Assembly (NCBI GenBank): GCA_015233785.1
Contig: JADFWT010000001.1
Span: forward strand, 27,752-91,751
Length of the DNA stretch: 64,000 bases
Direction: 5' to 3'
Origin: Magnetococcales bacterium
GTDB taxonomy: Bacteria; Pseudomonadota; Magnetococcia; Magnetococcales; JADFWT01
Program-made: the position numbers and the translations under genes
Notes under the pieces: generated by a model
What the model was told of the DNA's origin: nothing
The model's database searches: none
Seen by the model: only the letters and a program-made list of their open reading frames with translations
Part shown: positions 17,744-54,412 of the stretch, in pieces
Position numbering within the stretch: position 1 is the first letter of the stretch
How the letters are laid out: each line of letters starts with the position of its first letter

Positions 17744-19642
17744 TCAGGTGAGAAACTCACGCCAGAGCGGCTCCAGAGAGTCCCGATAGTTCTCCCAGGC
17801 CATCACCGAACTGCTGTAGATGGGCTTACGAACCTGACTGACGCTGGCTGTGGTCACCACCCGCTTGTTCTTATGAAACGCCATGCAGCGCGCATCCCAC
17901 CCCAGGTTGCAGTGCTCCAGAAGCAGGCGGGTCTCCCGCTCCTGATCCGCCACCAGCGCCTCGTAAGAGAGATCATAAATTCTGCCGGGCGCCACCCGAT
18001 GCCAATGCGCCATCAACGACTGATAGGCCCGGTAGTAACGCCCCAACTCGGAGAGGTGGTAGGCGTAGGGATGCGGCTCGCTGAACAGGGTCTTGAAGAT
18101 GGAAAAACAGGTGCCCATGGGATGGCGCACGCAGTGGATAATCTTCGCCTTGGGCAGCGCCGAGAGAATCCATCCTATATGCATATAATTATTGGGCATC
18201 TTATCAACAATATAGGGCGACTCAGGCGCACAGGCATGCAGTGCCTCCAGATAGCGCTGGCCCATGGTGCGAATCTGCTCGCCACTCAAGGCCCGGCTAT
18301 CCTGCCGCCAGCTCACCGGCGGACCAACTCGCCCTCCTGAGTTATGAGAAATCTCCCGCCAGAGCTTCTGCACCTCCAGCGGCATCTGTACCCGCTCTCC
18401 GGCGCCATACACCTGCGGGTGGCTGGAGAGTATCTGCTCAGCCAACGTGGTGCCGGAACGAGGCATGCCGAGAATAAAAATCGGTGCTTTATCCTCAACA
18501 CCGAACCTCTGCCAGCGAGCCAGGAAATCGGCATCCATCATCTCTTGGAGAAATCCAAAGCGCGCCTCGTCCTCCGTGACAAAGTAGCGATGACGCGTCC
18601 GCTCCATGCGATTGCCCGCCGCCAGATGATCAAAGGCGCGACGATGATCCCCAAGATCCTCATGCAGCTTGCCTAACGCAAAGGCTAGATTGGTGCGCTC
18701 AAAACGGCTGATGCCGCGCTTGGTGTAGAGCCGCTGCATCGCCTCGGTATAATGATTGGTCTCCCGCATCCGCCCGCAGGAGACCATGTGCCGATAGGCG
18801 ATGGCGCAAGAGGGATCGATGGTGACCGCCTGCTCAAAAGCTGTCCGTGCCTCCTCCAGACGCCCCAACCCTTTGAGTGTCACCCCAAGATTGTTGTAGG
18901 TGGCGGCTTGTTGCGGGTTCAGCTCCAGTGCCTGCCGATAGCACACCTCCGCCTCTTCCAGTCGCTCCAGCATCCGTAATGTATTGCCGAGATTACCCAG
19001 GGCATCCGGGTAGTTGGGACGTATCTTCAACGCTTGACGAAAATGGTCGTGGGCCTCCTGGAAGCGGTTTTTGGAGACCAAAAGATTGCCCAAATTATTA
19101 TGGGCAGCAGCCAGAGTGGGCTTGTGATGAATGGCGCGCTCAAAACTGCGCATCGCCTCTTGAATCTGACCGCGATCCTTATGGGTCAGCCCGAGATTGT
19201 TGTGGGCCTCCGCCAGATCGGGCTTAAGAACAATCGCCCGATGCAAGGCCACCCCCGCCGCCTCCAAACGCCCCTGAAGACGCAACAGATGGCCCAAATT
19301 GTTATAGGCCATGGGGTTGTTGGGCTGTAGCGCCAACGCCTTGCGGTAGCAGGCCATGGCACCGCTTCTATCTCCCAAATCAAAACGCGTGATGCCAAGA
19401 TTATTCAGCGCCGGAGCCATCTTCGGATTGGCGGCCAGGGCATATTCAATCAACCGCCTGGCATCCTGCATCCGGCCCTGCTGCCGAGCAATGAGACCCT
19501 GTCTGTGCAGCGCCTCGGCATAGTGGGCGTCCGCCGGTGAGATGGCCTCAAATCGGGCCAGCGCTTCATCCAATGCCCCCTGCTGATGCAGCGCCATTCC
19601 CTGCTGAAAAATCGCCTGAAAGTTGGACGCCTGGGCCACCAT
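17744..19642 (-). CDS. TPR repeat protein fused to a sulfotransferase domain (TPST/RaxST-like PAPS-binding motifs)
   Basis: The ORF is open to 19714. I prefer ATG 19642 (MVAQASNF), which has GGGGGAG about 7 nt upstream. N-terminal TPRs are followed by FILGMPRSGTTLAEQIL (5'-phosphosulfate-binding loop) and IIHCVRHPMGTCFS (3'-phosphate motif region). Confidence 0.85.
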   Translation of the reverse strand: MVAQASNFQAIFQQGMALHQQGALDEALARFEAISPADAHYAEALHRQGLIARQQGRMQDARRLIEYALAANPKMAPALNNLGITRFDLGDRSGAMACYRKALALQPNNPMAYNNLGHLLRLQGRLEAAGVALHRAIVLKPDLAEAHNNLGLTHKDRGQIQEAMRSFERAIHHKPTLAAAHNNLGNLLVSKNRFQEAHDHFRQALKIRPNYPDALGNLGNTLRMLERLEEAEVCYRQALELNPQQAATYNNLGVTLKGLGRLEEARTAFEQAVTIDPSCAIAYRHMVSCGRMRETNHYTEAMQRLYTKRGISRFERTNLAFALGKLHEDLGDHRRAFDHLAAGNRMERTRHRYFVTEDEARFGFLQEMMDADFLARWQRFGVEDKAPIFILGMPRSGTTLAEQILSSHPQVYGAGERVQMPLEVQKLWREISHNSGGRVGPPVSWRQDSRALSGEQIRTMGQRYLEALHACAPESPYIVDKMPNNYMHIGWILSALPKAKIIHCVRHPMGTCFSIFKTLFSEPHPYAYHLSELGRYYRAYQSLMAHWHRVAPGRIYDLSYEALVADQERETRLLLEHCNLGWDARCMAFHKNKRVVTTASVSQVRKPIYSSSVMAWENYRDSLEPLWREFLT

Positions 19643-19717
19643 GACACGCTCCCCCTGCTGAAGTGATCGAAAAAGAGATATTAACACGCATGACGACGCG
19701 GTTGAATGCGACAATTA

Positions 19718-28759: not shown

Positions 28760-30388
28760 ATGCCAAATTTTGGCCCTATTACATCAAAAACCATTTTTGA
28801 ACATCTATGCGCCTTTCTGGATGGCCTTCCCACGCCATCCACCCTGCTTCTCAATTTTACAGATAAGCGGCGCGGCGGTCTTCTCCATCGTCGGCTATTC
28901 AATGGTAGTACGGCCCGCATTGAGTTCTCTCTGACCATCCTTACCGCCATTTTTGCACTTTCCTTTGGGATCATCCTCTACCTTCAGGGGATTAAAATTG
29001 AACAACTCAGCGCCATGCTATTTTCCCGTGGTCTTGAGAATCTTGGACAAGAGGCGCTGGCAAGAGCCAATTTTTTGAATCATGCCGCCTGGGTGCTGTT
29101 CTTATCGATCCCTGGCATTGGATTTATCGGCGGATTGAAGCGCAAATTGTTTACGTTGCGCCTTATGTATATTGTTGACGTGATGAAAAAGATCACCGAT
29201 GGCGATCACACGCAACGCATCCACATCAGCCCCGGCAATCAAAGCATTCTCTATACCCATATCGGTCGGATGATCAACACCCTGACCGACACCCTCAACA
29301 AAGAGGAAGCTGGACGGGAACAGGCCAATGCCAAACTGCTGAAATCCCTGGACCAAGAGCGGGCCACTACCCAACGCCTGGACAAGGCCAACCGCGTCAT
29401 TCGTCACACCTTCGGGCGCTATATGTCTCCAGATGTCATGGAGGCTATTCTGGATCGACCCGACGGCCTGAAGCTGGGCGGGAAAAAAATGACCGTTACC
29501 GTCATGATGACCGATCTGCGTGGCTTCACCTCCATCAGTGACCGCATGGATTCGGAACAACTGCTTTCCATGCTCAACATGTACCTGGAGGTGATGACCA
29601 AAATCATCCTGGACCATAAGGGCACGATCATCGAATTTCTGGGGGATGGCATTCTCATGCTGTTTGGGGCGCCTTTCAATCGCCCAGACGACCCCCAACG
29701 CGCCGTGCGTTGCGCGCTGAAAATGCAAAAATCCATGGAACAGGTCAACCGCAGAAACCGCAAACACGGCTTTCCCGAATTGGCCATGGGGGTGGGCATC
29801 ACTACTGGAGATGTGGTGGCCGGTAATATTGGTTCCAATATACGCAGCAAATATGGCGTGGTGGGTACAAGTATCAATTTGGCAGCCCGGATTGAGTCCC
29901 TCACGGTAGGAGGACAGATCCTGATCTCAATGAATACCTACCTCGCATGTGAAAATCTACTCCGCATTGGCCAGCAGTTCGACACCACCCCAAAGGGATT
30001 TAAAAAACCCATCGCCATCTATGAGGTGACCGGAATCGGCGGCACGTATGATCTCTATCTGGATGTCACAAAAAACGAGCATCTCGCCCCCGTTTCCCCA
30101 GCCAAGATGGTCAGGTTCAGCCTATTGAGGAACAAATACCCTGACGCCATCTGCCATGATGGCTGGCTCACCAGCCTGACCCTGCCCAATGCCGAAATCC
30201 GCACCATCACCATGCTGGATGAGCGCAGTGATATTCAGATACAGCTTTTTGACAATCGCGGGGTCTTTGTCAGCGATCAACTCTACGGAAAAGTCACAGC
30301 GGTGGATAGAAAGAAGAAGATCCTTGAGGTCACCTTCACCTCGGTTCACCCCGATGCACGCGCCTATATAGAGAGTGATCGTTTTTGA
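28760..30388 (+). CDS. Membrane-anchored HAMP-like class III nucleotidyl cyclase (cyclase 2)
   Basis: 542-aa ORF with GGAGAG 5 nt upstream of the ATG. There are two hydrophobic helices (FSLTILTAIFALSFGIILYL, AAWVLFLSIPGIGFIGGL) and a HAMP-like linker. The catalytic domain reads VTVMMTDLRGFT...IIEFLGDGILMLFGAP...KYGVVGTSINLAARIES. Confidence 0.85.
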   Translation: MPNFGPITSKTIFEHLCAFLDGLPTPSTLLLNFTDKRRGGLLHRRLFNGSTARIEFSLTILTAIFALSFGIILYLQGIKIEQLSAMLFSRGLENLGQEALARANFLNHAAWVLFLSIPGIGFIGGLKRKLFTLRLMYIVDVMKKITDGDHTQRIHISPGNQSILYTHIGRMINTLTDTLNKEEAGREQANAKLLKSLDQERATTQRLDKANRVIRHTFGRYMSPDVMEAILDRPDGLKLGGKKMTVTVMMTDLRGFTSISDRMDSEQLLSMLNMYLEVMTKIILDHKGTIIEFLGDGILMLFGAPFNRPDDPQRAVRCALKMQKSMEQVNRRNRKHGFPELAMGVGITTGDVVAGNIGSNIRSKYGVVGTSINLAARIESLTVGGQILISMNTYLACENLLRIGQQFDTTPKGFKKPIAIYEVTGIGGTYDLYLDVTKNEHLAPVSPAKMVRFSLLRNKYPDAICHDGWLTSLTLPNAEIRTITMLDERSDIQIQLFDNRGVFVSDQLYGKVTAVDRKKKILEVTFTSVHPDARAYIESDRF

Positions 30389-45381: not shown

Positions 45382-48018
45382 TCACTCCGGCGCAACCGCA
45401 TGAAGACGCTTCTCCAGCAGCGCAGGAAACTGCCCAGCCGGGACGGGGGGGCTGAACAGATAACCTTGTAGCTCATTGCACGCCAACTGCTTGAGGAAAG
45501 CCAACTGCTCAGCACTCTCTACCCCCTCGGCGATCACCTCCAACTGGAGCGTGTGGGCCATGGAGATAATGGCAGACACAATGGCGGCATCGTTGGGATC
45601 ATCGGAGAGATCCTTAATGAAAGACCGATCAATCTTCAAAAACTGAATGGGAAATTTTTTCAGCGATCCCAGGGAAGAGTAACCGGTGCCAAAATCATCC
45701 ACCGATATGTAGAGCCCCATGGCCCGCAACAGTTCCATGGTCTCAATGGCTCTGTCCACATCTTCCATGACCATGCTTTCGGTAATTTCCAGCTCCAGAT
45801 ACTCCGGCGGCAGGCCGGTATCTTCCAGAGTTTCCGCCACCAGCCTCACCAGATCATCACTCTCTTGAAACTGGCGCGGCGAGATATTGACCGCTACCCG
45901 GAGCGGCGCTATCCCATCATTCATCCACTGCATGGTCTGAACACAGGCTGTCTTGAGAACCCACCGCCCCATGGGAATCACCAAGCCGCTCTCTTCGGCC
46001 AGCGGAATAAAGGCCCCAGGAGAGATGATGGCGCCATCGGGCTGCACCCAACGCACCAATGCCTCCATGCCGGTCATCCGCCCGCTCTCCAAATCTACTT
46101 TGGGCTGGTAGTAGAGACGGAGCTGATCTTCATCAATGGCGGCCCGCAGCGCCTTCTCCATCTCAAGCCGGGCAACAACACGGGCATTCATTTCAGGGGT
46201 GTAAAAACGGAATGTGGAGCGGCCCGCCTCCTTGGCCTGATACATGGCACTGTCAGCATTTTTGAGAAGATCTTCCAGATTGTCACCATCCTGAGGATAG
46301 ACGGTGACCCCAATACTGCCGGAAACAACCCCCTCACCCGCCTTGAGTCGATACGGTTTGCCCACCTCCTCCAAAATACGACGCGCCACAAACTCCACAT
46401 AACAGACATGGGTCATCTCCGGCAGAATGACGGTAAACTCATCGCCGCCCAATCGTGCCACGGTGTCGTATTTTCTCAGACAGATCTGGATGCGCCGCGC
46501 CGCCTCCTGAAGCAGCTCATCCCCCGCCTCGTGGCCCATGGTATCATTGATCTGTTTGAAACGATCAAGATCGATAAACATCACCACCACCTCCCGCTTG
46601 GAACGGGAGGCGAACTCAATAGCCTGAGCCAGCCGATCCTTAAACAATACACGGTTCGGCAGTTGGGTCAGTTCGTCAAATTCTGCCTGAAATTTAAGCT
46701 GTTGCTCTAACCCTTTACGCTTGATCAATCCCGCAACCGTCGCCCCAACAGCCCCCAGAAATTCGGCCTCTCCTTCCTGAATCTCATAACCTGAAGGGAG
46801 TTGAAGGTGGATCACGCCTACCGGCTGCTTCTCCACCAAAATCGGTAAGCAGTAGTGCGCTTCCGGGTCCGACCGGTGACGAACAGACTCAAGCAGAATC
46901 TCCTCTGACGCCGTATAGAGCGGCCTCGCCTCCCTCATGGCACGCCGGGCAAGCGTCCAACCGGGCTCCATATGGGCACTCTGTTTGAGCTGTGCATCGC
47001 TAAATCCACAATAGGCCGCCAACTCAAGCTCACGCGCCCCCTGCGGTTGGAGAAAGATGGCTCCACGGGGCAGCATGCCTAACCACGGCACCCCGAAAAT
47101 CTCCTCCAAAATACCCTCTAAAAGCTCTGGAAGCGGCATGGGGTCCAAAGATTTTTCCAGCATGCGGCTGATCGCCAGGCGGGCCTGATAATCATGGCGG
47201 GTGCGCCTCTCCGCCGCTTCACGGCTCTCCACCTCCTTCCGAAGCTGATCCACCATCTGATGCAGCCTGAGATGGCTGTCGATGATGCCCATATTCTGGG
47301 TGATGCGACAGAAAAGCTCCTCTTCCTTATAGGGCTTGGCCAGAAAATCGTTGGCACCGGCTTTGATAAACTTTGCCGCCAAGTTGCCGCCATCGTGAGA
47401 TGAGATACCGATGACCGCCAACTCATCTCGGGGGGAACGGCTGCGAATCCTCTTGGTCAGCTCCGCACCGTCCATGTCCGGCATATTGTAGTCGGTAACC
47501 ACCAGGCGAATATCAGGGCTGCTCGACAGGATCTCCAGCGCCTCGCCCGGCCCCTTTGCCTCAAGCACCGGAAAACGATAACGCTCCAGCAACCTACGAA
47601 TCTTGATGCGCGAACTGCTGGAGTCATCTACCACCAAAATGGGATGGGCATGATTTTTCTGTAGGCGATCAATAAAAAACAGCACCGTATCAATAACACC
47701 GATATTGTCTTTTAGAAAATAGTCCAGCACCCCACGAGAGAGCATCTTCTTTTGAAGTTGAAGATCAAAATTTCCGGTTAGCACCACACAGGGAATCTGT
47801 TTGGGAAGAAACAGATCGACAATCTCACCCTCCAAGGCATCCGGCAGGTTGAGGTCCAATACCGCCAGAAAAAAGGGCGCGGCTCCTTCCCGCTCAATCA
47901 CCTGTTCCGCTTCCGCCTTGGTGCGTGCCCAGATGATCTCAAAGGAGAGCTTCCGTTCAAATCGCTGCTTAAGAAGCGACCCGAAGCTCTTGGAGTCTTC
48001 CACCAGGATAATTTTCAT
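45382..48018 (-). CDS. REC-REC-GAF-GGDEF-EAL c-di-GMP turnover protein
   Basis: There are two receiver domains (MKIILVEDS...LDLNLPD; ILVVDDSSSS...TDYNMPDMDG...LAKP) and a GAF-like segment. The GGDEF domain reads RLGGDEFTVIL. The EAL domain reads EALVRW...ELEITES...DDFGTGYSSL...LKID. The ORF is open to 48075; I prefer ATG 48018. Confidence 0.9.
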   Translation of the reverse strand: MKIILVEDSKSFGSLLKQRFERKLSFEIIWARTKAEAEQVIEREGAAPFFLAVLDLNLPDALEGEIVDLFLPKQIPCVVLTGNFDLQLQKKMLSRGVLDYFLKDNIGVIDTVLFFIDRLQKNHAHPILVVDDSSSSRIKIRRLLERYRFPVLEAKGPGEALEILSSSPDIRLVVTDYNMPDMDGAELTKRIRSRSPRDELAVIGISSHDGGNLAAKFIKAGANDFLAKPYKEEELFCRITQNMGIIDSHLRLHQMVDQLRKEVESREAAERRTRHDYQARLAISRMLEKSLDPMPLPELLEGILEEIFGVPWLGMLPRGAIFLQPQGARELELAAYCGFSDAQLKQSAHMEPGWTLARRAMREARPLYTASEEILLESVRHRSDPEAHYCLPILVEKQPVGVIHLQLPSGYEIQEGEAEFLGAVGATVAGLIKRKGLEQQLKFQAEFDELTQLPNRVLFKDRLAQAIEFASRSKREVVVMFIDLDRFKQINDTMGHEAGDELLQEAARRIQICLRKYDTVARLGGDEFTVILPEMTHVCYVEFVARRILEEVGKPYRLKAGEGVVSGSIGVTVYPQDGDNLEDLLKNADSAMYQAKEAGRSTFRFYTPEMNARVVARLEMEKALRAAIDEDQLRLYYQPKVDLESGRMTGMEALVRWVQPDGAIISPGAFIPLAEESGLVIPMGRWVLKTACVQTMQWMNDGIAPLRVAVNISPRQFQESDDLVRLVAETLEDTGLPPEYLELEITESMVMEDVDRAIETMELLRAMGLYISVDDFGTGYSSLGSLKKFPIQFLKIDRSFIKDLSDDPNDAAIVSAIISMAHTLQLEVIAEGVESAEQLAFLKQLACNELQGYLFSPPVPAGQFPALLEKRLHAVAPE

Positions 48019-48373
48019 GCACCCCCGATCCCCCACAATTGCTCCCCATAGCCCATTTAGAGTTGCACGCCGCACCCGACAAATTGCTGATTACCGATTG
48101 CTTTAATGGGGCTGTTAACAATTTCTTATCAATTTTTACACTACCATAACATTGATCAAAGATGGGAACGATTCTCGATCATGGTCAATAATGGGCAATA
48201 ATTGGTAAATTCCAGCCCCGAATCCGCCCTTTTCACCTCTCTTCCGTTCCATTTGGAATGGCAACCACCGCGCCAATCGCGTAGCATGTGGATCATTATT
48301 ACCGGAGGGTAGCCATGACAGAGGCCATCATTCATTCCGTTGGCTTCATTCTATTAAACGAGGGGGAACCCCA

Positions 48374-48808
48374 ATGAGTGATCCAGTGAAGCGGGCAACG
48401 CTGCTTCTGGTTGATGATCTTCCGGCCAACATCAAAATCCTGCTGACCGCACTGCGGGATGAGTTTGAAATTCTAGTGGCTACCAGTGGCCCATTAGCTC
48501 TAAAAACCGTGGCCAACAAACCGGTGGATCTTATCGTCCTGGATATCGTAATGCCGGAGATGGATGGCTATGAGGTGTGTCGCCAACTCAAGGATAATGA
48601 AGCCACCAGCAACATCCCGGTGATATTTCTCACCGGCGGTGATGCCGACTCCGATGAGCGTGAGGGGTTGGCGCTGGGCGCTGTGGATTATGTCACCAAG
48701 CCGGTCAACCCACAGCTTCTAAAACGTCGCATTGAGTCGCAGTTAACCATCCGTGAACTGATGCTGAGAGTGACTGAACTGGAACAGGCGCTGGCAGAAA
48801 AGTCTTAA
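48374..48808 (+). CDS. Single-domain CheY-like response regulator receiver
   Basis: 144-aa ORF with LLLVDDLP, LIVLDIVMPEMDG, PVIFLTG and DYVTKP motifs. Confidence 0.9.
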   Translation: MSDPVKRATLLLVDDLPANIKILLTALRDEFEILVATSGPLALKTVANKPVDLIVLDIVMPEMDGYEVCRQLKDNEATSNIPVIFLTGGDADSDEREGLALGAVDYVTKPVNPQLLKRRIESQLTIRELMLRVTELEQALAEKS

Positions 48809-48845
48809 CTGCGGTTTAATTAACCGCCGTGTACATTGAACTACC

Positions 48846-50237
48846 ATGGATAGAGACCCTATGAAACGTCGCACGCCCCTCGCACGCCCTGGAATCCTGC
48901 TGGCCGTCATGCTGCTGGCCACCCCACTCACCACGGCCCAGGCCGATTGGAAAGAGAAACTGCAAGGTGCCGTGGACGCCACCATGGAGGTTGGCGGAAA
49001 AGCGCTGGATGCCTCCAAAGAGATCGGTGGCAAGGCCCTGGACAGCTCCATGGAGATGGGCGGAAAAGCGCTGGATGCAACCCGTGAGATGAGCCATAAA
49101 GCGCTCGATAAGACCCGCCAGACCCAAGAGGAACTCTCCCGTGGCGTCACCGACCTAAGCCGTTCACCAGAAGATGAAAACGCCCACTTTCAAGAGGTGT
49201 GGAACAGCTCCCTGGGCAAGCTGGAACAAGCTCTGGAGCAGTTCGATAAGATTGAATCTGCCCCTGAATCCAGCTGGTTCGGCACCGACAAAAAATCTGC
49301 ACGGACCGACTTCGAGGAGATCCTGAACGATCTCATCCAGATCCTGGATGACGAACGTATTGGATCCCTGCGTCAGGAGATCCATCAAAGAGAGAGCCGC
49401 ATCAAGGAGCTTCAAGACGACATCCGCCGCTACAAAGAGCAAAAAATTGCCGCTCCCGTGAGCCATATGGTGGAGACCACACGCGGCCAATATGAACAAA
49501 AAATCAAACAGAGTCGCCAAGCCATCACCGAAGAACGCCACGAGATCAATGGCATTAAACGGCGCATGCTGGTGGCCCTTGAGCAGATCGGCGTCCACCT
49601 CACCAAAGATCAACTCTCGGTGCTGCTGGCACGGGTGGACTCCAACGACATCATCCAGATGTCTGCGGTGTTCAACGTGCTCAAGGATATGACCTCCCAG
49701 TTGATGCAGTTGACCGCAGATTCCGGCGAAGATCTCACCGCTGCCCGGCGCTACTACGGCATGCATCTTATGCTGCTGGAGACAGTGGTATTCATGCAGA
49801 CCAAATATATGGACCAAATCGCCACCATCTACATCCCCGGCATCGACCGCATCGGCGATGAAACCCGCAAGCTCAACGCCGACACCCGACGACAGCTCCA
49901 CGCCGAAACCGACGCCAACCGTAAGCGACTCTACCAGCAGAATCTCCACTCCCAGAAGGTAACGCTGAAAGCCACCAAACTCTATTTGAACAACCTCAAG
50001 TCCCAACGCAATAAAGTGGACAAGGCCCGCCAACAGGCGATGAAAAACCGTGCTCTGGCCCGCAACACCTACCGAACCGTGCGAATCAGCGCTGAATTTC
50101 TCACCCTGTTTAAAGCAAGCCAGGAGAGCTTTAAGGCCATCATCAATCTTCAGGTGCCTGAGATTGTGCCGTTCGAAAATCTGGAGGTTCAAAAGAAGTA
50201 TGAGGAGCTATCCTCACGATTGGGAAGCGGCTCCTAA
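48846..50237 (+). CDS. Secreted/periplasmic coiled-coil protein of unknown function
   Basis: 463-aa ORF. It has a signal peptide (MKRRTPLARPGILLAVMLLATPLTTAQA) and four 11-aa GGKALD repeats. The rest is a long, heptad-like charged helical region. A second possible start is at 48861. Confidence 0.7.
   Translation: MDRDPMKRRTPLARPGILLAVMLLATPLTTAQADWKEKLQGAVDATMEVGGKALDASKEIGGKALDSSMEMGGKALDATREMSHKALDKTRQTQEELSRGVTDLSRSPEDENAHFQEVWNSSLGKLEQALEQFDKIESAPESSWFGTDKKSARTDFEEILNDLIQILDDERIGSLRQEIHQRESRIKELQDDIRRYKEQKIAAPVSHMVETTRGQYEQKIKQSRQAITEERHEINGIKRRMLVALEQIGVHLTKDQLSVLLARVDSNDIIQMSAVFNVLKDMTSQLMQLTADSGEDLTAARRYYGMHLMLLETVVFMQTKYMDQIATIYIPGIDRIGDETRKLNADTRRQLHAETDANRKRLYQQNLHSQKVTLKATKLYLNNLKSQRNKVDKARQQAMKNRALARNTYRTVRISAEFLTLFKASQESFKAIINLQVPEIVPFENLEVQKKYEELSSRLGSGS
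48984..49115 (+). repeat. Four tandem 33-nt (11-codon) repeats inside the secreted coiled-coil gene
   Basis: The units start at 48984, 49017, 49050 and 49083. They encode MEVGGKALDAS, KEIGGKALDSS, MEMGGKALDAT and REMSHKALDKT. Units 1 and 3 share the block GGCGGAAAAGCGCTGGATGC. Confidence 0.85.
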
Positions 50238-50261: not shown

Positions 50262-52163
50262 ATGAGATCCAATTCTTCTACAGCTTCTCAAGAGCCGACG
50301 GTTGATCAAACCGTTCAACGCGCCCTTACGCATCATCAGGCCGGAGAGCTGGCCGAAGCGGAGCAGCTCTATCGTCAGGTACTGAGTGCCGACCCCAAAC
50401 ATGCAGACGCCCTGCATCTGCTCGGCGTCATCGCCCAACAGGTGGGCCACCCCGAACAGGCGGTGGAGTTGATCCAAAAGGCGCTGCGCCACAATCCCCA
50501 GCAGGCCGAAGCCCACAGCAATCTCGGTAACGCCCTGTATGATCTGGGGCGTTTGAAAGAGGCGGCCCGCGCCTTTCGCAGGGCCATTATCCTACAGCCG
50601 GAATTTGCCAACGCCCACAGCAACCTCGGCAATGCCCTCCTGGGACTCAATCGTCCTGGAGAGGCCATGGCGTGCTGTCAAACGGCCCTGAAACTGGACC
50701 CCGCCTTTGCCGATGCCGAAAACACGCTGGGCAACGCTCACAAAGCGCTGGGAGAGCTGGACAAGGCCGCCCATCACTATCAACGCGCCATGGAGCTGGC
50801 CCCCCAACACCCGCTGGCCTCCTTTAATCTGGGCGGGGTGCTTCTCGATCAGGGACATCTTGAAGGCGCACTCTCCTGCTATCGAGACCGTCTGGCCATT
50901 CAATTTGACTTTCGCATGGCCCGCAGCTATCTCAACGCCTTGCTGTTTCAACCCCAGCTCGACCATGAGACGCTGTTTACCGAGCAGACGCGCCTGATCT
51001 CCCAGGCCATTGCCCTCCAACCGCCCTGCCCAGCCCCTTCCAAGCCAGTCAAGCCTCTTCCAGACTCGACCAACACGCCCCGTTTGAGAATCGGCTATCT
51101 CTCCTCCGACCTCTACGATCACCCGGTAGGCCGTAATGTACTGCCCCTTCTGGCGCACCACGATCACAGCCGTTTTGAAATTTTCTGTTATGCAGAACAC
51201 CCGCGCAGTGATCGCTTTAACGATGCACTCCGCCAATCTGCGGACCATTGGCGGGAGACGGCTGGATACTCCGATGGCGAGGTGGCCAATCAGATCCGGC
51301 AGGATAATGTGCAGATCATGGTCTACCTGGGAGGCTGCTTCAACGACAACCGCATTCTGGTTGCCAACTACCGTCCAGCCCCGGTGCAGATCAGCTTTCA
51401 CGGCGGGGCCAGTACCGGCCTTGAGAACATGGACTACTGGTTAAGCGACAGTGCCATCCATCCTCCATCAGATACCCGCGAGCAGTTCACAGAGACACTG
51501 CATCGACTCCCGGTATTCTACAACTATCCAGCACCTCGGGATGCCCCTCCCATCTCGCCGCTGCCCGCCGAGCGAAACGGCATGATCACCTTTGGCTCCC
51601 TCAACAATCCTGCCAAAATCAATGACGAAGTGATCGCCCTATGGTCGGAGATCCTGCATCAGGTTTCCGATGCAAAAATGCTGCTGAAGTTTCGCAATAT
51701 TTACGATAATCCATCGGTTCGGCAGCGTATGCTGGATGCCTTCGCTGCCCATGACATTCCCGAACAGCGCTTGATGTTCCATAGCGCCCTTGAGCAGCAG
51801 AACCAGCACCTGACGCGTTATCATGTGATCGATATCGCCCTGGACCCGTTCCCCTTCACCGGTGCCACCACCACCTTCCAGGCCCTCTGGATGGGCGTGC
51901 CGGTGGTCACACTGCTCGGGGATCGATTCATCAGCCGTATGGCCGGGGATATTCTTATCCATGGCGGATTTGAATCATGGGCCGTTAGTTCCAAAGAGAC
52001 ATATCGGGAGCGTGCGGTGGCGTTGGCGTCCGACTGGAAACGTCTGGCGGCGCTTCGCACCCAGATTCGCCAGCAACTGGCCGACTCCCCCATCTGTCAG
52101 GGGGCACCCTACGCCGCCTCCGTGGAAACCACTTTTGAAGCCCTCTGGAAGCAACGGAATTGA
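50262..52163 (+). CDS. TPR-GT41 (OGT-like) glycosyltransferase, paralog 11
   Basis: 633-aa ORF. Motifs: RIGYLSSDLYDHPVGRNVLPL and DIALDPFPFTGATTTFQALWMGVPVVTLLG. Confidence 0.9.
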   Translation: MRSNSSTASQEPTVDQTVQRALTHHQAGELAEAEQLYRQVLSADPKHADALHLLGVIAQQVGHPEQAVELIQKALRHNPQQAEAHSNLGNALYDLGRLKEAARAFRRAIILQPEFANAHSNLGNALLGLNRPGEAMACCQTALKLDPAFADAENTLGNAHKALGELDKAAHHYQRAMELAPQHPLASFNLGGVLLDQGHLEGALSCYRDRLAIQFDFRMARSYLNALLFQPQLDHETLFTEQTRLISQAIALQPPCPAPSKPVKPLPDSTNTPRLRIGYLSSDLYDHPVGRNVLPLLAHHDHSRFEIFCYAEHPRSDRFNDALRQSADHWRETAGYSDGEVANQIRQDNVQIMVYLGGCFNDNRILVANYRPAPVQISFHGGASTGLENMDYWLSDSAIHPPSDTREQFTETLHRLPVFYNYPAPRDAPPISPLPAERNGMITFGSLNNPAKINDEVIALWSEILHQVSDAKMLLKFRNIYDNPSVRQRMLDAFAAHDIPEQRLMFHSALEQQNQHLTRYHVIDIALDPFPFTGATTTFQALWMGVPVVTLLGDRFISRMAGDILIHGGFESWAVSSKETYRERAVALASDWKRLAALRTQIRQQLADSPICQGAPYAASVETTFEALWKQRN

Positions 52164-52167
52164 CCGG

Positions 52168-53904
52168 ATGACACCTATCGAAGAGCAGCCCCCGGAGAGA
52201 GAACAGCTCACCCTTGGTGAGGCCTATAATCAAGCTGTCGAACAGTTTAATGCGGGTCGCTTAAACGAGGTAGAACGGATCGGTTCCATCATCCTGCAGG
52301 CTGTTCCCACTCACCTTGAAACCATCAATCTCCTTGGTGTCACGGCCCAGACTCTTCAGCAACATGATCAGGCCGTTGCACAGTTCAGGCATGGGCTTGA
52401 GCTTAATGACCAGGTGGCTACGTTGCACTTTAATCTCGGCATTTCGCTCCAGGCCTTGGGGGCCACGCAGGCGGCCATGTCGGCCTTGCAATCTGCAGTT
52501 GCACTGGAACCGGACAATCCTCAATACAAGGAAACACTGCGCCGCCTCCAGGAGGCCCCCTCATCCGTACCTATACCTGATCAGGCCGACTCGGCAGCCA
52601 TTCAGAGAGGGCTTGATCTGCATCATGCCGGGCAGCTTGATGAGGCATCCGCCTGCTTTCAGGAGATTCTAAGACAGCACCCTGACCACGCCCCGGCTCT
52701 GAACAATCTCGGCAACGTACTCAGTCAGGCCAACCAACTCGAAGAAGCCGTGGCCCATTATCAAAAAGCCATTGCCATCCAACCCGATTCCCCGCATACG
52801 CACTTCAATTTGGGCAATGCCCTCTCCGGCATGAATCGACTGGAAGAGGCGGTGGCCAGCTATCAGCGAGCGATTACCCTTGATGGGCAGCTTGCAGAGT
52901 ACCACTACAATCTTGGCATAGTTGAAGAGAAACGCCACAACACACTGGAAGCGCTCACCTGTTATCAGACCGCCCTCCGCATCAAACCGGACTTTGCAGA
53001 GGCTAGAAAAGCGTATGAAACCTTTCTGAAGCAACAGGTTCCAAACTGGCACTTTGCCATGATGAACGATCTGCCGCGAAATGATGCCTACGAAGCGGCC
53101 ATCAAAGCAGCCGTCACCCCGGACTCAACGGTGTTGGATATTGGAACAGGTGGCGGCTTATTAGCCATGATGGCTGCCAAACATGGAGCCAAAAAGGTCT
53201 ATACCGTAGAGGTCGTCCCAATCATTGCCCAACTTGCCAGAGAGATTATCCAAAAAAATGGCTATGAAGAGGTGATTACGGTTCTCAACAAGGAGTCAAC
53301 TCTTCTTAAGATCGGGCAGGATCTTCCCCAGCGGGCCGACATTTTGGTCACGGAGACCTTTGATGTGGGACTGATTGGCGAACGGGCGATCTCATTCATC
53401 CAACACGCCCATGAACATCTGCTTAAAGAGAACGCCACCATCATTCCACAGCGCGCCGTGGTCTATGGCGCACTACTTGAAAGCGATTCGCTATACAAGA
53501 TGGGAAAAGTTGAGACGGTCTCCGGATTTGATCTCTCTCCGTTCAATATCTGCACAACGCCCTATATGCAACTACCCCTGAAAGACTACGCCCACCACTT
53601 TCTTTCAGACCGTTTTGAAATATTTGATTTTGATTTTGCCAATGGTGAGATCCAAGAAGAGCACAAGATGCTCTCCATCACGCCGACGCAATCAGGAACT
53701 TGCCACGCGGTTGCCTTCTGGTTTCGTCTTTTTTTGGACCAAAACCAACACTACGACACCTCCACCCAGCACAACCCGGACAACCATTGGCAACAGGCCA
53801 TTCACATCGTGGATGACCCCAGATCCGTACAGCCTGGTGAGCCGGTATCGTTGATAACCAGCCACGATAGAAAAACCATTCATTTGGCGCTGGATCAATC
53901 GTAG
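52168..53904 (+). CDS. TPR repeat protein fused to a protein arginine N-methyltransferase (PRMT)-like class I methyltransferase domain
   Basis: The ORF is open from 51862, but that extension overlaps paralog 11. I prefer ATG 52168 (MTPIEEQPPE), 4 nt after the upstream stop. After the TPRs come WHFAMMNDLPRNDAYEAAI, motif I VLDIGTGGGLL, VYTVE, a double-E-loop-like TETFDVGLIGE and a THW-loop-like NHWQQA. Confidence 0.8.
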   Translation: MTPIEEQPPEREQLTLGEAYNQAVEQFNAGRLNEVERIGSIILQAVPTHLETINLLGVTAQTLQQHDQAVAQFRHGLELNDQVATLHFNLGISLQALGATQAAMSALQSAVALEPDNPQYKETLRRLQEAPSSVPIPDQADSAAIQRGLDLHHAGQLDEASACFQEILRQHPDHAPALNNLGNVLSQANQLEEAVAHYQKAIAIQPDSPHTHFNLGNALSGMNRLEEAVASYQRAITLDGQLAEYHYNLGIVEEKRHNTLEALTCYQTALRIKPDFAEARKAYETFLKQQVPNWHFAMMNDLPRNDAYEAAIKAAVTPDSTVLDIGTGGGLLAMMAAKHGAKKVYTVEVVPIIAQLAREIIQKNGYEEVITVLNKESTLLKIGQDLPQRADILVTETFDVGLIGERAISFIQHAHEHLLKENATIIPQRAVVYGALLESDSLYKMGKVETVSGFDLSPFNICTTPYMQLPLKDYAHHFLSDRFEIFDFDFANGEIQEEHKMLSITPTQSGTCHAVAFWFRLFLDQNQHYDTSTQHNPDNHWQQAIHIVDDPRSVQPGEPVSLITSHDRKTIHLALDQS

Positions 53905-54097
53905 GATAGATGATGCAGTCAATGAAGATGTAGCATCCCGCTATTCTCCAGCTACCTGGTTTACATGCAAAACAACAAGCCACTTTTTTGCTGCCCTACC
54001 ATAAACTACATATAAAACTAGATAAACTAAAAGACCATTTGACACCTACTTAATAAGTCCGCATAGTTAAGGTGAAATGAGTCGGTTATTCCCTTAA

Positions 54098-54412
54098 ATG
54101 ATCTGGAAAACCCTGTTAAACCGATGCACAAAGGATATGCCGCTGATGAAAATGTATGAGAAGAATGACCCCTACAAAGTGTTTGTAAAAACGGGTGAAT
54201 CGGTGCGGGTCTGCACCTGTGGTCTTAGCAAGGATCCGCCTTTTTGCGACGACGCTCATGAGGGCAAATCAGAAAAAATACCACTGGTAAATACAGCAGA
54301 GGCCGATACCAACTTGTTTGTGTGCGGATGCGGAAACAGTAAGGATATGCCCTGGTGTGATGGTGCCCATAAATCATGCCCTGAGAATGAGTATTTCAAA
54401 GAGCGCTACTGA
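54098..54412 (+). CDS. CDGSH-type iron-sulfur domain protein (two CDGSH motifs)
   Basis: The first motif is CTCGLSKDPPFCDDAH (Gly to Asp variant). The second, CGCGNSKDMPWCDGAH, is canonical. The start codon is uncertain because several Met codons lie near the N-terminus. Confidence 0.8.
   Translation: MIWKTLLNRCTKDMPLMKMYEKNDPYKVFVKTGESVRVCTCGLSKDPPFCDDAHEGKSEKIPLVNTAEADTNLFVCGCGNSKDMPWCDGAHKSCPENEYFKERY

What the first reader, a model, noticed from the sequence alone, without database searches (positions are those of the whole stretch)
52168..53904. Bacterial TPR-PRMT: a protein arginine methyltransferase-like enzyme with the eukaryotic catalytic signatures
The C-terminal half carries, in order, the PRMT pre-motif (H.AMMND..RNDAY..AI, compare H..ML.D..R...Y), motif I VLDIGTGGGLL and post-I VYTVE. 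It has a double-E loop with the same E-to-E spacing as PRMT1 (TETFDVGLIGE versus SEWMGYCLFYE). It also has a THW-loop equivalent (NHWQQA versus THWKQT). N-terminal TPRs fused to a PRMT core are known from eukaryotic PRMT9. Arginine methylation by PRMT-type enzymes is poorly documented in bacteria. The gene starts 4 nt after GT41 paralog 11, so the two are probably co-transcribed.
Basis: partly seen in the sequence, partly recalled or inferred. Interest (0 to 1): 0.6.

Follow-up and report, generated by a model that had tools for sequence, protein, structure and literature searches.

The report
Bacterial TPR-fused PRMT7/9-type arginine methyltransferase
This gene from a magnetotactic-type bacterium (Magnetococcales) encodes seven TPR protein-binding repeats fused to a complete methyltransferase of the family that methylates arginine in eukaryotic proteins, and it belongs to a large, uncharacterised bacterial family whose real substrate is untested.

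Summary
ORF 52168-53904 (+, 578 aa) starts 4 nt after the stop of the 11th of 15 TPR-GT41 paralogs in the window. It encodes 7 TPRs followed by a complete PRMT catalytic module.

The closest solved structures by sequence are PRMT7 and PRMT9, with domain E-values of 1e-31 to 3e-39. PRMT1 is weaker at about 5e-24. A high-confidence model (pLDDT 93.6) superposes best on bovine PRMT9, across both the TPRs and the catalytic domain.

This protein is not an isolated eukaryote-like oddity. At least 204 bacterial species in about 9 phyla carry relatives, and all 80 examined keep the catalytic residues.

One clade, without Pfam-detectable TPRs and mostly actinomycete, always sits next to an SznF homologue. 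It therefore corresponds to SznE-type methyltransferases, which act on free L-arginine. The window protein lies outside that clade. Instead it recurs beside TPR-GT41 and TPR-sulfotransferase genes in about 9 of roughly 90 loci.

Most likely it is a cytoplasmic arginine-guanidino N-methyltransferase whose TPRs recruit a protein substrate. That substrate class is inferred, not shown. I rate it a new variant of a known kind, of moderate interest.

The parts
52168..53904 (+). Complete ORF, 578 aa plus stop: TPR-PRMT (NCBI MBF0587535.1)
52213..52554 (+). TPR block 1 (residues 16-129): three TPRs plus a capping helix, followed by a low-confidence linker at residues 130-138
   Evidence: AF2 secondary structure; Pfam TPR hits
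52582..53037 (+). TPR block 2 (residues 139-290): four TPRs plus a capping helix that runs directly into the catalytic domain. It aligns without gaps to the TPRs and junction of PRMT9.
53047..53448 (+). Rossmann-fold SAM-binding domain (residues 294-427)
53047..53103 (+). PRMT pre-motif WHFAMMNDLPRNDAYEAAI. W294, H295, M298 and R304 are invariant in 80/80 bacterial homologues.
53131..53163 (+). Motif I VLDIGTGGGLL (G326/G328/G330 invariant)
53197..53211 (+). Post-I VYTVE (E348 invariant)
53350..53382 (+). Double-E loop TETFDVGLIGE (E396 and E405 invariant in 80/80). It matches PRMT9 TETVDAGLFGE at 8 of 11 positions.
53449..53892 (+). C-terminal beta-barrel domain (Pfam PRMT_C, residues 428-564). 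It includes a short helical insert (helices 440-446 and 457-462) where PRMTs carry the dimerisation arm.
53782..53799 (+). THW-loop equivalent NHWQQA (W541 invariant in 80/80; H540 in 47/80)
50262..52163 (+). Upstream TPR-GT41 paralog (11th of 15 in the window). Its stop lies 4 nt before the PRMT start, so it is a probable operon partner.
48374..50237 (+). Possible upstream members of the same transcription unit: a response regulator (48374-48808) and a 463-aa protein with no Pfam match (48846-50237). Gene gaps are 37, 24 and 4 nt. There is no + strand terminator-like site before 53904, and a promoter-like site lies at 48115-48142.
   Evidence: consensus scans only; site counts are not above shuffles

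Best explanation
The gene encodes a soluble cytoplasmic, SAM-dependent arginine-guanidino N-methyltransferase of the PRMT7/PRMT9 lineage.

Shown by computation: the Rossmann domain binds SAM through motif I (G326/G328/G330) and E348. The double-E loop (E396, E405) and the THW loop (H540-W541) form the canonical PRMT arginine pocket. The C-terminal beta-barrel completes the PRMT fold.

Inferred: the seven N-terminal TPRs act as the substrate- or partner-recruiting module, as the three TPRs of PRMT9 do for SF3B2 and the TPR domain of FlmG does for flagellins. The enzyme would then methylate arginine in one or a few specific proteins rather than free arginine.

It is probably co-transcribed with the upstream TPR-GT41. 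It belongs to a genomic set of TPR-adaptor enzymes in this window (15 TPR-GT41, one TPR-sulfotransferase, this TPR-PRMT). Product type (MMA, SDMA or ADMA) and substrate identity are unknown.
For: Enzyme class:
- phmmer against PDB gives TbPRMT7 3e-39, mouse PRMT7 N-module 2e-34 and PRMT9 N-module 1e-31 to 7.5e-36, against PRMT1 at about 5e-24.
- Pfam PRMT_C scores above its gathering cut-off.
- The AF2 model has pLDDT 93.6 and pTM 0.74. Its best Foldseek PDB hits are bovine PRMT9 8rbk (E 7e-27, 435 aligned columns covering TPRs plus catalytic module), mouse PRMT7 and TbPRMT7 (TM 0.76 normalised to the target).
- The catalytic residues align column for column with PRMT1/7/9 and are invariant in 80/80 bacterial homologues. 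This indicates conservation of catalytic function across the family.

Protein substrate:
- The TPR-to-catalytic junction is collinear with PRMT9, with the same 19-residue offset from the 'DF' that ends the last TPR to the W of WHF.
- PRMT9's TPRs are required to bind and methylate SF3B2 (PMC13639276).
- The TPR domain of bacterial FlmG binds its flagellin substrates (PMC7591256).

Not SznE-type:
- There is no SznF-like gene in the window (tblastn, E<=1).
- SznF-like genes flank 14/80 homologues, and those 14 form one NJ clade that excludes the window protein.
- The window carries that clade's signature residue at only 1 of 11 positions.

Context:
- The start is 4 nt after the GT41 stop.
- TPR-PRMT genes lie beside TPR-GT41 and/or TPR-sulfotransferase genes in the window, L006, L009, L039, L042, L052, L074, L081 and L089.
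Against: - No experiment exists for any TPR-fused bacterial member.
- The only bacterial relatives linkable to a known activity, the SznF-adjacent clade, correspond to enzymes that act on free L-arginine (PMC11705231). A small-molecule substrate is therefore a live option for the family.
- Most TPR-PRMT homologues have no conserved neighbour. Context gives no substrate, and the GT41/sulfotransferase association holds in only about 9 of roughly 90 loci. It may simply reflect genomes rich in TPR-enzyme paralogs.
- No candidate substrate was identified in the window; Pfam scans of the larger ORFs found no flagellin domain, and RGG-rich proteins were not searched for.
- TPR sequence similarity to PRMT9 is weak, adding about 13 bits over two repeats (searches compared). 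The shared architecture could be convergent.
- The substrates of the neighbouring TPR-GT41 and TPR-sulfotransferase enzymes are also unknown.
Confidence: 0.55

Rival explanations
1. It is a small-molecule enzyme. Like SznE/StzE, it would N-methylate free L-arginine or another free guanidino compound, feeding a metabolite pathway. The TPRs would only mediate assembly with partner enzymes.
For: The family contains a coherent clade whose members are always adjacent to full-length SznF homologues (PDB 6m9r E 2.8e-88; 14/80 loci). SznE/StzE makes N-omega-methyl-L-arginine for SznF (PMC11705231). The window protein is about 42% identical to these proteins in the catalytic domain and has the same catalytic residues. 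The window also holds a radical-SAM/B12 enzyme and an FkbM methyltransferase.
Against: The window has no SznF-like gene, and the Pfam scans of its larger ORFs found no ATP-grasp domain. The protein lies outside the SznF-linked clade and carries its signature at only 1 of 11 positions, lacking for example the Cys inside the double-E loop that is fixed in 14/14 of that clade. The one member of that clade whose gene call was checked has no Pfam-detectable TPRs, whereas this protein has seven. TPR fusion is characteristic of protein-directed enzymes such as PRMT9, OGT and FlmG (PMC13639276, PMC7591256).
Confidence: 0.22
2. It is a recent horizontal acquisition of a eukaryotic PRMT9 or PRMT7 fragment, possibly with no native bacterial role.
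For: The best solved-structure matches are eukaryotic PRMT7/9, and the TPR-plus-catalytic architecture mirrors PRMT9.
Against: The nearest relatives are bacterial at 40-55% identity, in at least 204 species across about 9 phyla. Identity to eukaryotic PRMT7/9 is only 27-32% in the structural alignments. The bacterial sequences are themselves deeply divergent, and the catalytic residues are conserved in 80/80. GC content around the gene (0.528) is within the range of the window. The protein has a single module, not the tandem modules of animal PRMT7/9.
Confidence: 0.03
3. It is a methyltransferase for a different acceptor, as the database names of some homologues suggest: ribosomal protein L11 lysine/N-terminus (PrmA) or 16S rRNA G966 (RsmD).
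For: Several homologues are named '50S ribosomal protein L11 methyltransferase' or 'RsmD' in public records. Pfam PrmA hits residues 312-395 at E 8e-10.
Against: The PrmA match covers only the generic Rossmann core. NCBIfam PrmA equivalog models score about 30 bits against cut-offs of 183-269. The PRMT-specific double-E and THW loops and the PRMT_C beta-barrel are all present. PDB matches are exclusively PRMTs at E<1e-14 for the catalytic domain.
Confidence: 0.04
4. It is a catalytically silent scaffold (pseudo-enzyme) that uses the TPRs and a dead PRMT fold only for binding.
For: Degenerate PRMT modules exist in the family: the C-terminal modules of PRMT7/9, and the N-terminal modules of two-module proteins P0126 and P0131, which have lost the double-E glutamates.
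Against: Every SAM-binding and catalytic residue examined is intact in this protein.
Confidence: 0.03

Closest known systems
PRMT9 (human 6pdm/7rbq; bovine 8rbk)
   Same: N-terminal TPRs run directly into a PRMT catalytic module, with the same 19-residue spacing from the end of the last TPR to WHF. The double-E loops are nearly identical (TETFDVGLIGE versus TETVDAGLFGE). PRMT9 is the best Foldseek hit, with 435 aligned columns spanning TPRs and catalytic module. PRMT9's TPRs are needed for substrate binding (PMC13639276).
   Different: PRMT9 has three TPRs and two tandem PRMT modules, the second degenerate. This protein has seven TPRs in two blocks and a single module. PRMT9 carries TCW in its THW loop and this protein NHW, although some bacterial relatives have TCW or SCW. 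PRMT9 has an insertion after the 'HLL' motif that is absent here. Identity is about 27-31%. PRMT9 is eukaryotic and methylates the spliceosomal protein SF3B2, which bacteria lack.
PRMT7 (Trypanosoma brucei single-module enzyme 4m36/4m38; mouse 4c4a)
   Same: TbPRMT7 gives the highest-scoring sequence match for a single domain (138 bits, E 3e-39). It is also a single-module enzyme, with TM 0.76 normalised to the target. The pre-motif is the same (HYAMMNDEERN versus HFAMMNDLPRN).
   Different: PRMT7 has no TPRs. TbPRMT7 has MQW in its THW loop. [quoted passage not shown]
SznE/StzE, the free L-arginine N-omega-methyltransferase of streptozotocin biosynthesis
   Same: It is a bacterial arginine-guanidino methyltransferase. 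The SznF-adjacent clade of this same family (for example Actinomadura P0073) is about 42% identical to the window's catalytic domain and has identical catalytic residues (PMC11705231).
   Different: No Pfam-detectable TPRs in the member checked (P0073). It is always next to an SznF homologue, in a cluster that in Actinomadura also holds ATP-grasp and MFS genes. It carries clade-specific residues that the window lacks, including Cys in the double-E loop. I could not obtain the SznE sequence itself, so the link rests on synteny with SznF homologues.
TPR-adaptor protein-modifying enzymes: OGT/GT41 and Caulobacter FlmG
   Same: The design logic is the same: an N-terminal TPR array that recognises the protein substrate, fused to a C-terminal catalytic domain, soluble and cytoplasmic (PMC7591256). 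The window's TPRs match OGT TPRs strongly, and the gene sits among 15 TPR-GT41 paralogs.
   Different: The catalytic domain is a methyltransferase, not a glycosyltransferase. There is no homology outside the TPRs.
PrmA (ribosomal protein L11 methyltransferase)
   Same: It is a class I Rossmann SAM methyltransferase, and it is the source of the names given to several homologues.
   Different: The match is to the generic core only and falls far below the NCBIfam cut-offs. PrmA lacks the double-E and THW loops and the PRMT beta-barrel.

Membership tests
PRMT family (protein arginine N-methyltransferases) | Class I seven-beta-strand SAM-binding domain with motif I (GxGxG) and a post-I acidic residue | tested here: met
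   VLDIGTGGGLL (322-332) and E348 align with PRMT1/7/9 and are invariant in 80/80 homologues. The Rossmann strands and helices appear in the model.
PRMT family (protein arginine N-methyltransferases) | Double-E loop: two glutamates separated by eight residues | tested here: met
   E396 and E405 align to the PRMT1 SEWMGYCLFYE glutamates and are invariant in 80/80. [quoted passage not shown]
PRMT family (protein arginine N-methyltransferases) | THW loop | tested here: met
   N539-H540-W541 aligns to THW of PRMT1, DHW of PRMT7 and TCW of PRMT9. W541 is invariant in 80/80 and H540 is present in 47/80.
PRMT family (protein arginine N-methyltransferases) | C-terminal beta-barrel domain | tested here: met
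   Pfam PF22528 PRMT_C covers residues 428-564 at 36.9 bits, above the cut-off of 27. The model shows beta strands from 419 to 575, and the Foldseek hits are PRMTs.
PRMT family (protein arginine N-methyltransferases) | Dimer or pseudo-dimer formed through a dimerisation arm | not testable with these tools
   A short helical insert (440-446 and 457-462) sits where the arm lies. Oligomeric state cannot be determined here.
PRMT family (protein arginine N-methyltransferases) | Methylates arginine residues within proteins | not testable with these tools
   This needs an enzyme assay or methyl-arginine proteomics.
PRMT9 subfamily | N-terminal TPRs contiguous with the catalytic module | tested here: met
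   There are seven TPRs. The junction is collinear with PRMT9, and Foldseek aligns 435 columns to 8rbk.
PRMT9 subfamily | Two tandem PRMT modules in one chain | tested here: not met
   There is a single module, and the protein ends at residue 578 after one beta-barrel. No second PRMT-like sequence exists in the window.
PRMT9 subfamily | Orthology: groups specifically with eukaryotic PRMT9 in a tree | tested here: inconclusive
   In the NJ tree with 100 bootstraps, the bacterial proteins, PRMT7 and PRMT9 separate from PRMT1, but all deep nodes have support below 60.
SznE/StzE-type free-arginine N-methyltransferases | Gene adjacent to an SznF (HDO-cupin) homologue in a biosynthetic cluster | tested here: not met
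   tblastn of an SznF homologue against the window finds nothing at E<=1. In contrast, 14/80 family loci have one.
SznE/StzE-type free-arginine N-methyltransferases | Membership of the SznF-linked clade and possession of its signature residues | tested here: not met
   The protein lies outside the 14-member clade and shares only 1 of 11 clade-specific residues.
PrmA (L11 methyltransferase) | Scores above the NCBIfam equivalog cut-offs | tested here: not met
   TIGR00406 scores 30.6 bits against a cut-off of 183. NF001785 and NF001790 score about 31 bits against 188 and 269.

The most novel reading that the evidence does not exclude
This is a genuine bacterial protein-arginine methyltransferase. 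It would be one arm of a TPR-adaptor post-translational modification toolkit, in which O-glycosylation by TPR-GT41, sulfation by TPR-sulfotransferase and arginine methylation by TPR-PRMT act on shared cytoplasmic protein substrates. The bacterial TPR-PRMT lineage would also share a fused TPR-catalytic ancestor with eukaryotic PRMT9/PRMT7. The PRMT9 architecture would then predate, or have been exchanged with, eukaryotes.
Probability: 0.25. Interest if true: 0.75.

Novelty: new variant of a known kind. Interest (0 to 1): 0.5.

Why it matters
PRMTs are treated as eukaryotic enzymes; reviews describe arginine methylation as found in all eukaryotic systems (PMC13639276). I found no paper in the searchable library describing a bacterial TPR-PRMT.

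If this enzyme methylates proteins, it would identify a dedicated writer of protein arginine methylation in bacteria, present in hundreds of species. It would also be a simple single-module relative of PRMT7/9. That would make it a tractable model for how TPRs programme PRMT substrate choice, and a handle on the origin of the PRMT7/9 lineage.

If it methylates free arginine instead, it would extend SznE-type chemistry well beyond actinomycete natural-product clusters.

Either way, the public annotations are uninformative or wrong. This protein is labelled 'tetratricopeptide repeat protein', and homologues are labelled 'L11 methyltransferase' or 'RsmD'.

Tried and rejected
- Literature: five searches for bacterial PRMT, PRMT evolution or TPR-PRMT returned nothing on this family. 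The only relevant items were a mention of predicted, uncharacterised Legionella PRMTs and Rv1988. Key papers were not held: Ng 2019, Hadjikyriacou 2015 and 2017, Yang 2015. Statements about SznE therefore rest on the review PMC11705231 and on PMC12637814.
- Exact-protein contig look-up failed. The organism was obtained from the cluster look-up instead.
- No similar DNA in plasmids.
- The metagenome scan for close relatives gave only three loci at 38-40% identity. Synteny in close relatives could not be tested.
- A search for a universally conserved neighbour gene across 80 loci found none. Conserved neighbours exist only inside the actinomycete clade.
- NJ phylogeny with PRMT7, PRMT9 and PRMT1: deep nodes are unresolved, so the direction or existence of inter-domain transfer cannot be called. 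No maximum-likelihood program was available.
- TPR-region comparison: similarity to in-genome GT41 TPRs (41% over 135 aa) is about the same as to the TPRs of TPR-PRMT homologues (42% over 125 aa, one repeat out of register). It cannot show whether the TPRs were recently swapped in from a neighbouring paralog.
- Promoter and terminator scans are not above shuffled expectation.
- Clade-specific residue analysis separates the window protein from the SznE-type clade, but it does not by itself indicate a protein substrate. Eukaryotic PRMTs match neither state consistently.
- Considered and rejected: PrmA or RsmD identity, a pseudo-enzyme and recent eukaryotic HGT.
Full report
**What is there**

The finding's coordinates hold one ORF on the + strand. 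It runs from ATG 52168 to TAG 53902-53904 and encodes 578 aa. An exact-sequence look-up identifies it as NCBI MBF0587535.1 from a Magnetococcales bacterium MAG (contig 93,268 bp). It is annotated only as 'tetratricopeptide repeat protein', with the same start as used here.

The upstream ORF 50262-52163 ends in TGA, followed by CCGG and then the ATG. The 4-nt gap is therefore real. That upstream ORF has a Glyco_transf_41 C-terminal domain (E 4.8e-43). BLAST of that domain against the window's large ORFs finds 15 paralogs: 12 at 50-58% identity (counting the query itself) and 3 at 32-35%. The methyltransferase domain has no paralog in the window.

**Is it a PRMT?**

Pfam finds five TPRs, a generic PrmA-type Rossmann match (residues 312-395) and PRMT_C (PF22528, residues 428-564, 36.9 bits against a gathering cut-off of 27).

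Against all PDB sequences, every match to the catalytic half is a PRMT:

| Target | Result |
|---|---|
| T. brucei PRMT7 | 138 bits, E 3e-39 |
| Mouse PRMT7 N-module | 122.6 bits, E 2e-34 |
| Human and bovine PRMT9 N-module | 112-114 bits, E about 1e-31 |
| PRMT9, with the last TPRs included | 127 bits, E 7.5e-36 |
| Yeast and human PRMT1 | about 88 bits, E about 5e-24 |

The NCBIfam PrmA equivalog models score about 30 bits against cut-offs of 183-269. The 'L11 methyltransferase' and 'RsmD' names on some homologues are therefore not supported.

| Motif | Window | Comparison |
|---|---|---|
| Pre-motif | WHFAMMNDLPRNDAYEAAI (294-312) | WHFIMLNDTKRNTIYNAAI (PRMT9) |
| Motif I | VLDIGTGGGLL (322-332) | |
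| Post-I | VYTVE (344-348) | |
| Double-E loop | TETFDVGLIGE (395-405) | TETVDAGLFGE (PRMT9), SEWMGYCLFYE (PRMT1) |
| THW loop | NHWQQA (539-544) | THWKQT (PRMT1), DHWMQC (PRMT7), TCWEQA (PRMT9) |

An AlphaFold2 model built on a 48-sequence alignment has mean pLDDT 93.6 and pTM 0.74. It shows:
- three TPRs plus a capping helix (residues 16-129);
- a short disordered linker;
- four TPRs plus a capping helix (139-290);
- a Rossmann domain (294-427);
- a beta-barrel extending to residue 575.

Foldseek against the PDB ranks bovine PRMT9 (8rbk, with SAH) first. The E-value is 7e-27 with 435 aligned columns, covering TPRs plus the catalytic module. Mouse PRMT7, TbPRMT7 (TM 0.76 normalised to the target), C. 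elegans PRMT7 and human PRMT9 follow. Type I PRMTs come after those.

The observation and the 'PRMT-like, PRMT9-like architecture' reading are confirmed.

**It belongs to a large bacterial family**

A search with the catalytic domain found 448 proteins at E<=1e-5. The best is 55% identical. They fall into two main architectures: TPR plus PRMT (about 420-500 aa) and stand-alone (about 309-375 aa). Some JGI records already carry automatic names such as 'type II protein arginine methyltransferase' or 'PRMT7'.

The phyla and groups represented include:
- Cyanobacteria (Pseudanabaena, Phormidium);
- Actinomycetota (Actinomadura, Spirillospora and others);
- Alpha-, Beta- and Gammaproteobacteria;
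- Bacteroidota;
- Bdellovibrionota;
- Desulfobacterota;
- Acidobacteriota.

A profile of 19 catalytic domains, searched against 1.84 billion cluster representatives, gave 22,493 hits at E<=1e-3 and 4,069 at E<=1e-30. The best 150 are mostly bacterial-looking. They also include an animal-like PRMT7 (P0188), animal-like PRMT9s (P0193, P0211, P0246), and two-module proteins of unidentified origin with one degenerate module (P0126, P0131).

In 80 of 80 bacterial homologues the following residues are invariant: W294, H295, M298, R304, G326/G328/G330, E348, E396, E405, W518 and W541. This argues for conserved catalysis.

The GC content around the gene (0.528) is within the window's range. Identity to eukaryotic PRMT7/9 is only 27-32% in the structural alignments. 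A recent acquisition from a eukaryote is therefore not indicated.

An NJ tree with 100 bootstraps separates the bacterial proteins, PRMT7 and PRMT9 from PRMT1. The deep branching order is unresolved, with supports below 60. The window protein pairs with a Paracoccaceae MAG protein that also has a long TPR region (L003, support 61).

**A characterised bacterial relative acts on free arginine**

The stand-alone Actinomadura homologue P0073 lies in an operon with this gene order: Rieske, PRMT-like, Haem_oxygenas_2, unknown, ATP-grasp, MFS. The gene immediately downstream is a full-length homologue of SznF (PDB 6m9r, E 2.8e-88, residues 13-467 of 476).

SznF acts on N-omega-methyl-L-arginine, which is made by the arginine-guanidino methyltransferase SznE/StzE in streptozotocin biosynthesis (PMC11705231). 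SznE has also been used as a probe for N-methylarginine-derived antibiotics (PMC12637814).

SznF-like ORFs flank the PRMT-like gene in 14 of the 80 genome loci. Those 14 form exactly one clade of the NJ tree. The 11 core actinomycete sequences have bootstrap 100, and all 14 together have 30.

It also creates a concrete rival for the substrate. The window protein differs from that clade in four ways:
- it lies outside the clade;
- the window has no SznF-like sequence (tblastn, E<=1);
- it has seven TPRs, whereas P0073, the one member of that clade whose gene call was checked, has no Pfam-detectable TPRs;
- it carries the clade's state at only 1 of 11 clade-specific positions, and lacks the Cys in the double-E loop that is fixed in 14/14 of that clade.

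**Context**

Upstream genes on the same strand are a response regulator (48374-48808), a 463-aa protein with no Pfam hit (48846-50237) and the GT41 paralog. The gaps between them are 37, 24 and 4 nt. No + strand terminator-like site precedes 53904. Promoter-like sites lie at 48115 and 54039. However, these consensus scans are not enriched over shuffled sequence. Co-transcription is therefore plausible but untested.

Besides the 15 TPR-GT41 genes, the window contains:
- a TPR-sulfotransferase (17744-19714, - strand);
- an FkbM methyltransferase;
- a radical-SAM/B12 protein;
- three adenylate/guanylate cyclases;
- a GGDEF-EAL response regulator;
- a C39-ABC exporter with a cNMP-binding HlyD partner;
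- a CDGSH protein.

No universally conserved neighbour of the PRMT gene exists across loci. Several close homologues are 'loners' in unrelated contexts.

The combination with other TPR-fused enzymes does recur, in about 9 of roughly 90 loci:
- L006 (Thiotrichaceae) has GT41, TPR-sulfotransferase and TPR-PRMT side by side.
- L081 (P0005) lies among two TPR-GT41 genes, a TPR-sulfotransferase and more TPR proteins.
- L089 (P0007) lies among four TPR-sulfotransferases.
- L039, L042, L052 and L074 have GT41 genes within 8 kb, and L009 has a sulfotransferase.

This is suggestive. It may also simply reflect genomes that have expanded TPR-enzyme families.

**Mechanism proposed**

Shown by computation: a complete PRMT active site and fold, and a TPR array contiguous with it as in PRMT9.

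Inferred: the TPRs select a protein substrate or partner. Two precedents support this. PRMT9's TPRs are essential for binding and methylating SF3B2 (PMC13639276). The TPR domain of the bacterial flagellin glycosyltransferase FlmG is necessary and sufficient for binding its flagellin substrates (PMC7591256).

I put about 0.9 on 'arginine-guanidino N-methyltransferase of the PRMT7/9 lineage'. I put about 0.55 on the full statement including a protein substrate. The free-arginine or small-molecule rival gets about 0.2. Product type (MMA, SDMA or ADMA) cannot be predicted from these data.

**Comparison and novelty**

The protein works like, and by every testable criterion is, a member of the PRMT family. 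Within the family it resembles PRMT9 in architecture, but it fails the tandem-module criterion. It resembles TbPRMT7 in being a single module. It fails both tests for the SznE type.

The shared TPR-to-catalytic spacing is a 19-residue offset from the 'DF' ending the last TPR to the W of WHF, in both proteins. This spacing and the 435-column superposition are compatible with a common fused ancestor. However, the TPRs themselves add only about 13 bits of similarity (searches compared). A minimal linker could arise convergently, and the tree is unresolved.

I found no description of bacterial TPR-PRMTs in the searchable literature. The only related items were predicted, uncharacterised Legionella PRMTs. 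That library is incomplete, and databases already hold hundreds of such sequences.

I therefore rate it a new variant of a known kind. Interest is moderate (0.5). The enzyme is readily testable and relevant to the origin of PRMT7/9 and to bacterial protein methylation. But the enzyme class is not surprising once the databases are consulted, and the key claim, a protein substrate, is unproven.

Noticed in passing
window 17744-19714 (- strand): This is a 656-aa protein with five or more TPRs fused to a sulfotransferase domain (Sulfotransfer_3, E 1.6e-50). Similar TPR-sulfotransferases sit beside TPR-PRMT homologues in L006, L009, L081 and L089 (four copies in L089). Their substrate is unknown.
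   Followed up: partly
window 9082-62629: There are fifteen TPR-GT41 (OGT-like) paralogs in 64 kb. Twelve (counting the query 50262-52163) are at least 50% identical in the catalytic domain, and three are at 32-35% (22425, 24709, 42114-). This is an unusually dense paralog array with unknown acceptor substrates.
   Followed up: partly
L082 5047-13125 (Actinomadura verrucosospora CP053892.1) and 13 other loci: A conserved streptozotocin-like cluster has this gene order: HDO, Rieske, PRMT-like (SznE-type), SznF homologue (E 2.8e-88 to 6m9r), unknown, ATP-grasp, MFS. It occurs in Actinomadura, Spirillospora, Actinoallomurus, Actinokineospora, Sphaerisporangium and one Pyrinomonadaceae MAG. It probably makes an N-nitroso or N-N bonded metabolite.
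   Followed up: partly
P0126 (679 aa), P0131 (744 aa), P0220 (727 aa): These proteins from metagenome assemblies (origin not identified) have two tandem PRMT modules. In P0126 and P0131 the N-terminal module has lost the double-E glutamates and the C-terminal module is intact. This is the reverse order of animal PRMT7/9, which suggests independent tandem duplications.
   Followed up: no
L086-L088 6001-9197: Stand-alone 310-aa PRMT-like genes (P0032, in three MAGs) are followed after 2 nt by a 753-aa double Peptidase_U32 protein. This possible functional link was not explored.
   Followed up: no
window 2080-6373: A C39-peptidase ABC exporter (807 aa) is followed by a HlyD-type membrane-fusion protein carrying an N-terminal cyclic-nucleotide-binding domain. 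This looks like a cNMP-regulated type I or bacteriocin-type secretion pair. It lies near three adenylate/guanylate cyclase genes (19718-22171-, 28760-30388+, 37075-39195-).
   Followed up: no
window 46547-46639 (- strand): ARAGORN calls a 93-nt tRNA-Trp (CCA) inside the coding sequence of the GGDEF-EAL response regulator (45382-48075, - strand). It is probably a false positive.
   Followed up: no
window 54098-54412: This small protein has two CDGSH iron-sulfur motifs (zf-CDGSH, E 4.7e-17). It lies in the AT-rich gap between the PRMT gene and the next GT41 paralog, with the best promoter-like match of the region just upstream (54039-54067).
   Followed up: no
The window's own protein (P0121) is in the protein collection but did not appear among the hits of the search for homologous proteins. 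The genome scan's pattern (G[TSA]G[STA]GLL...) also cannot match the window's GTGGGLL. Closer relatives may therefore have been missed.
   Followed up: no
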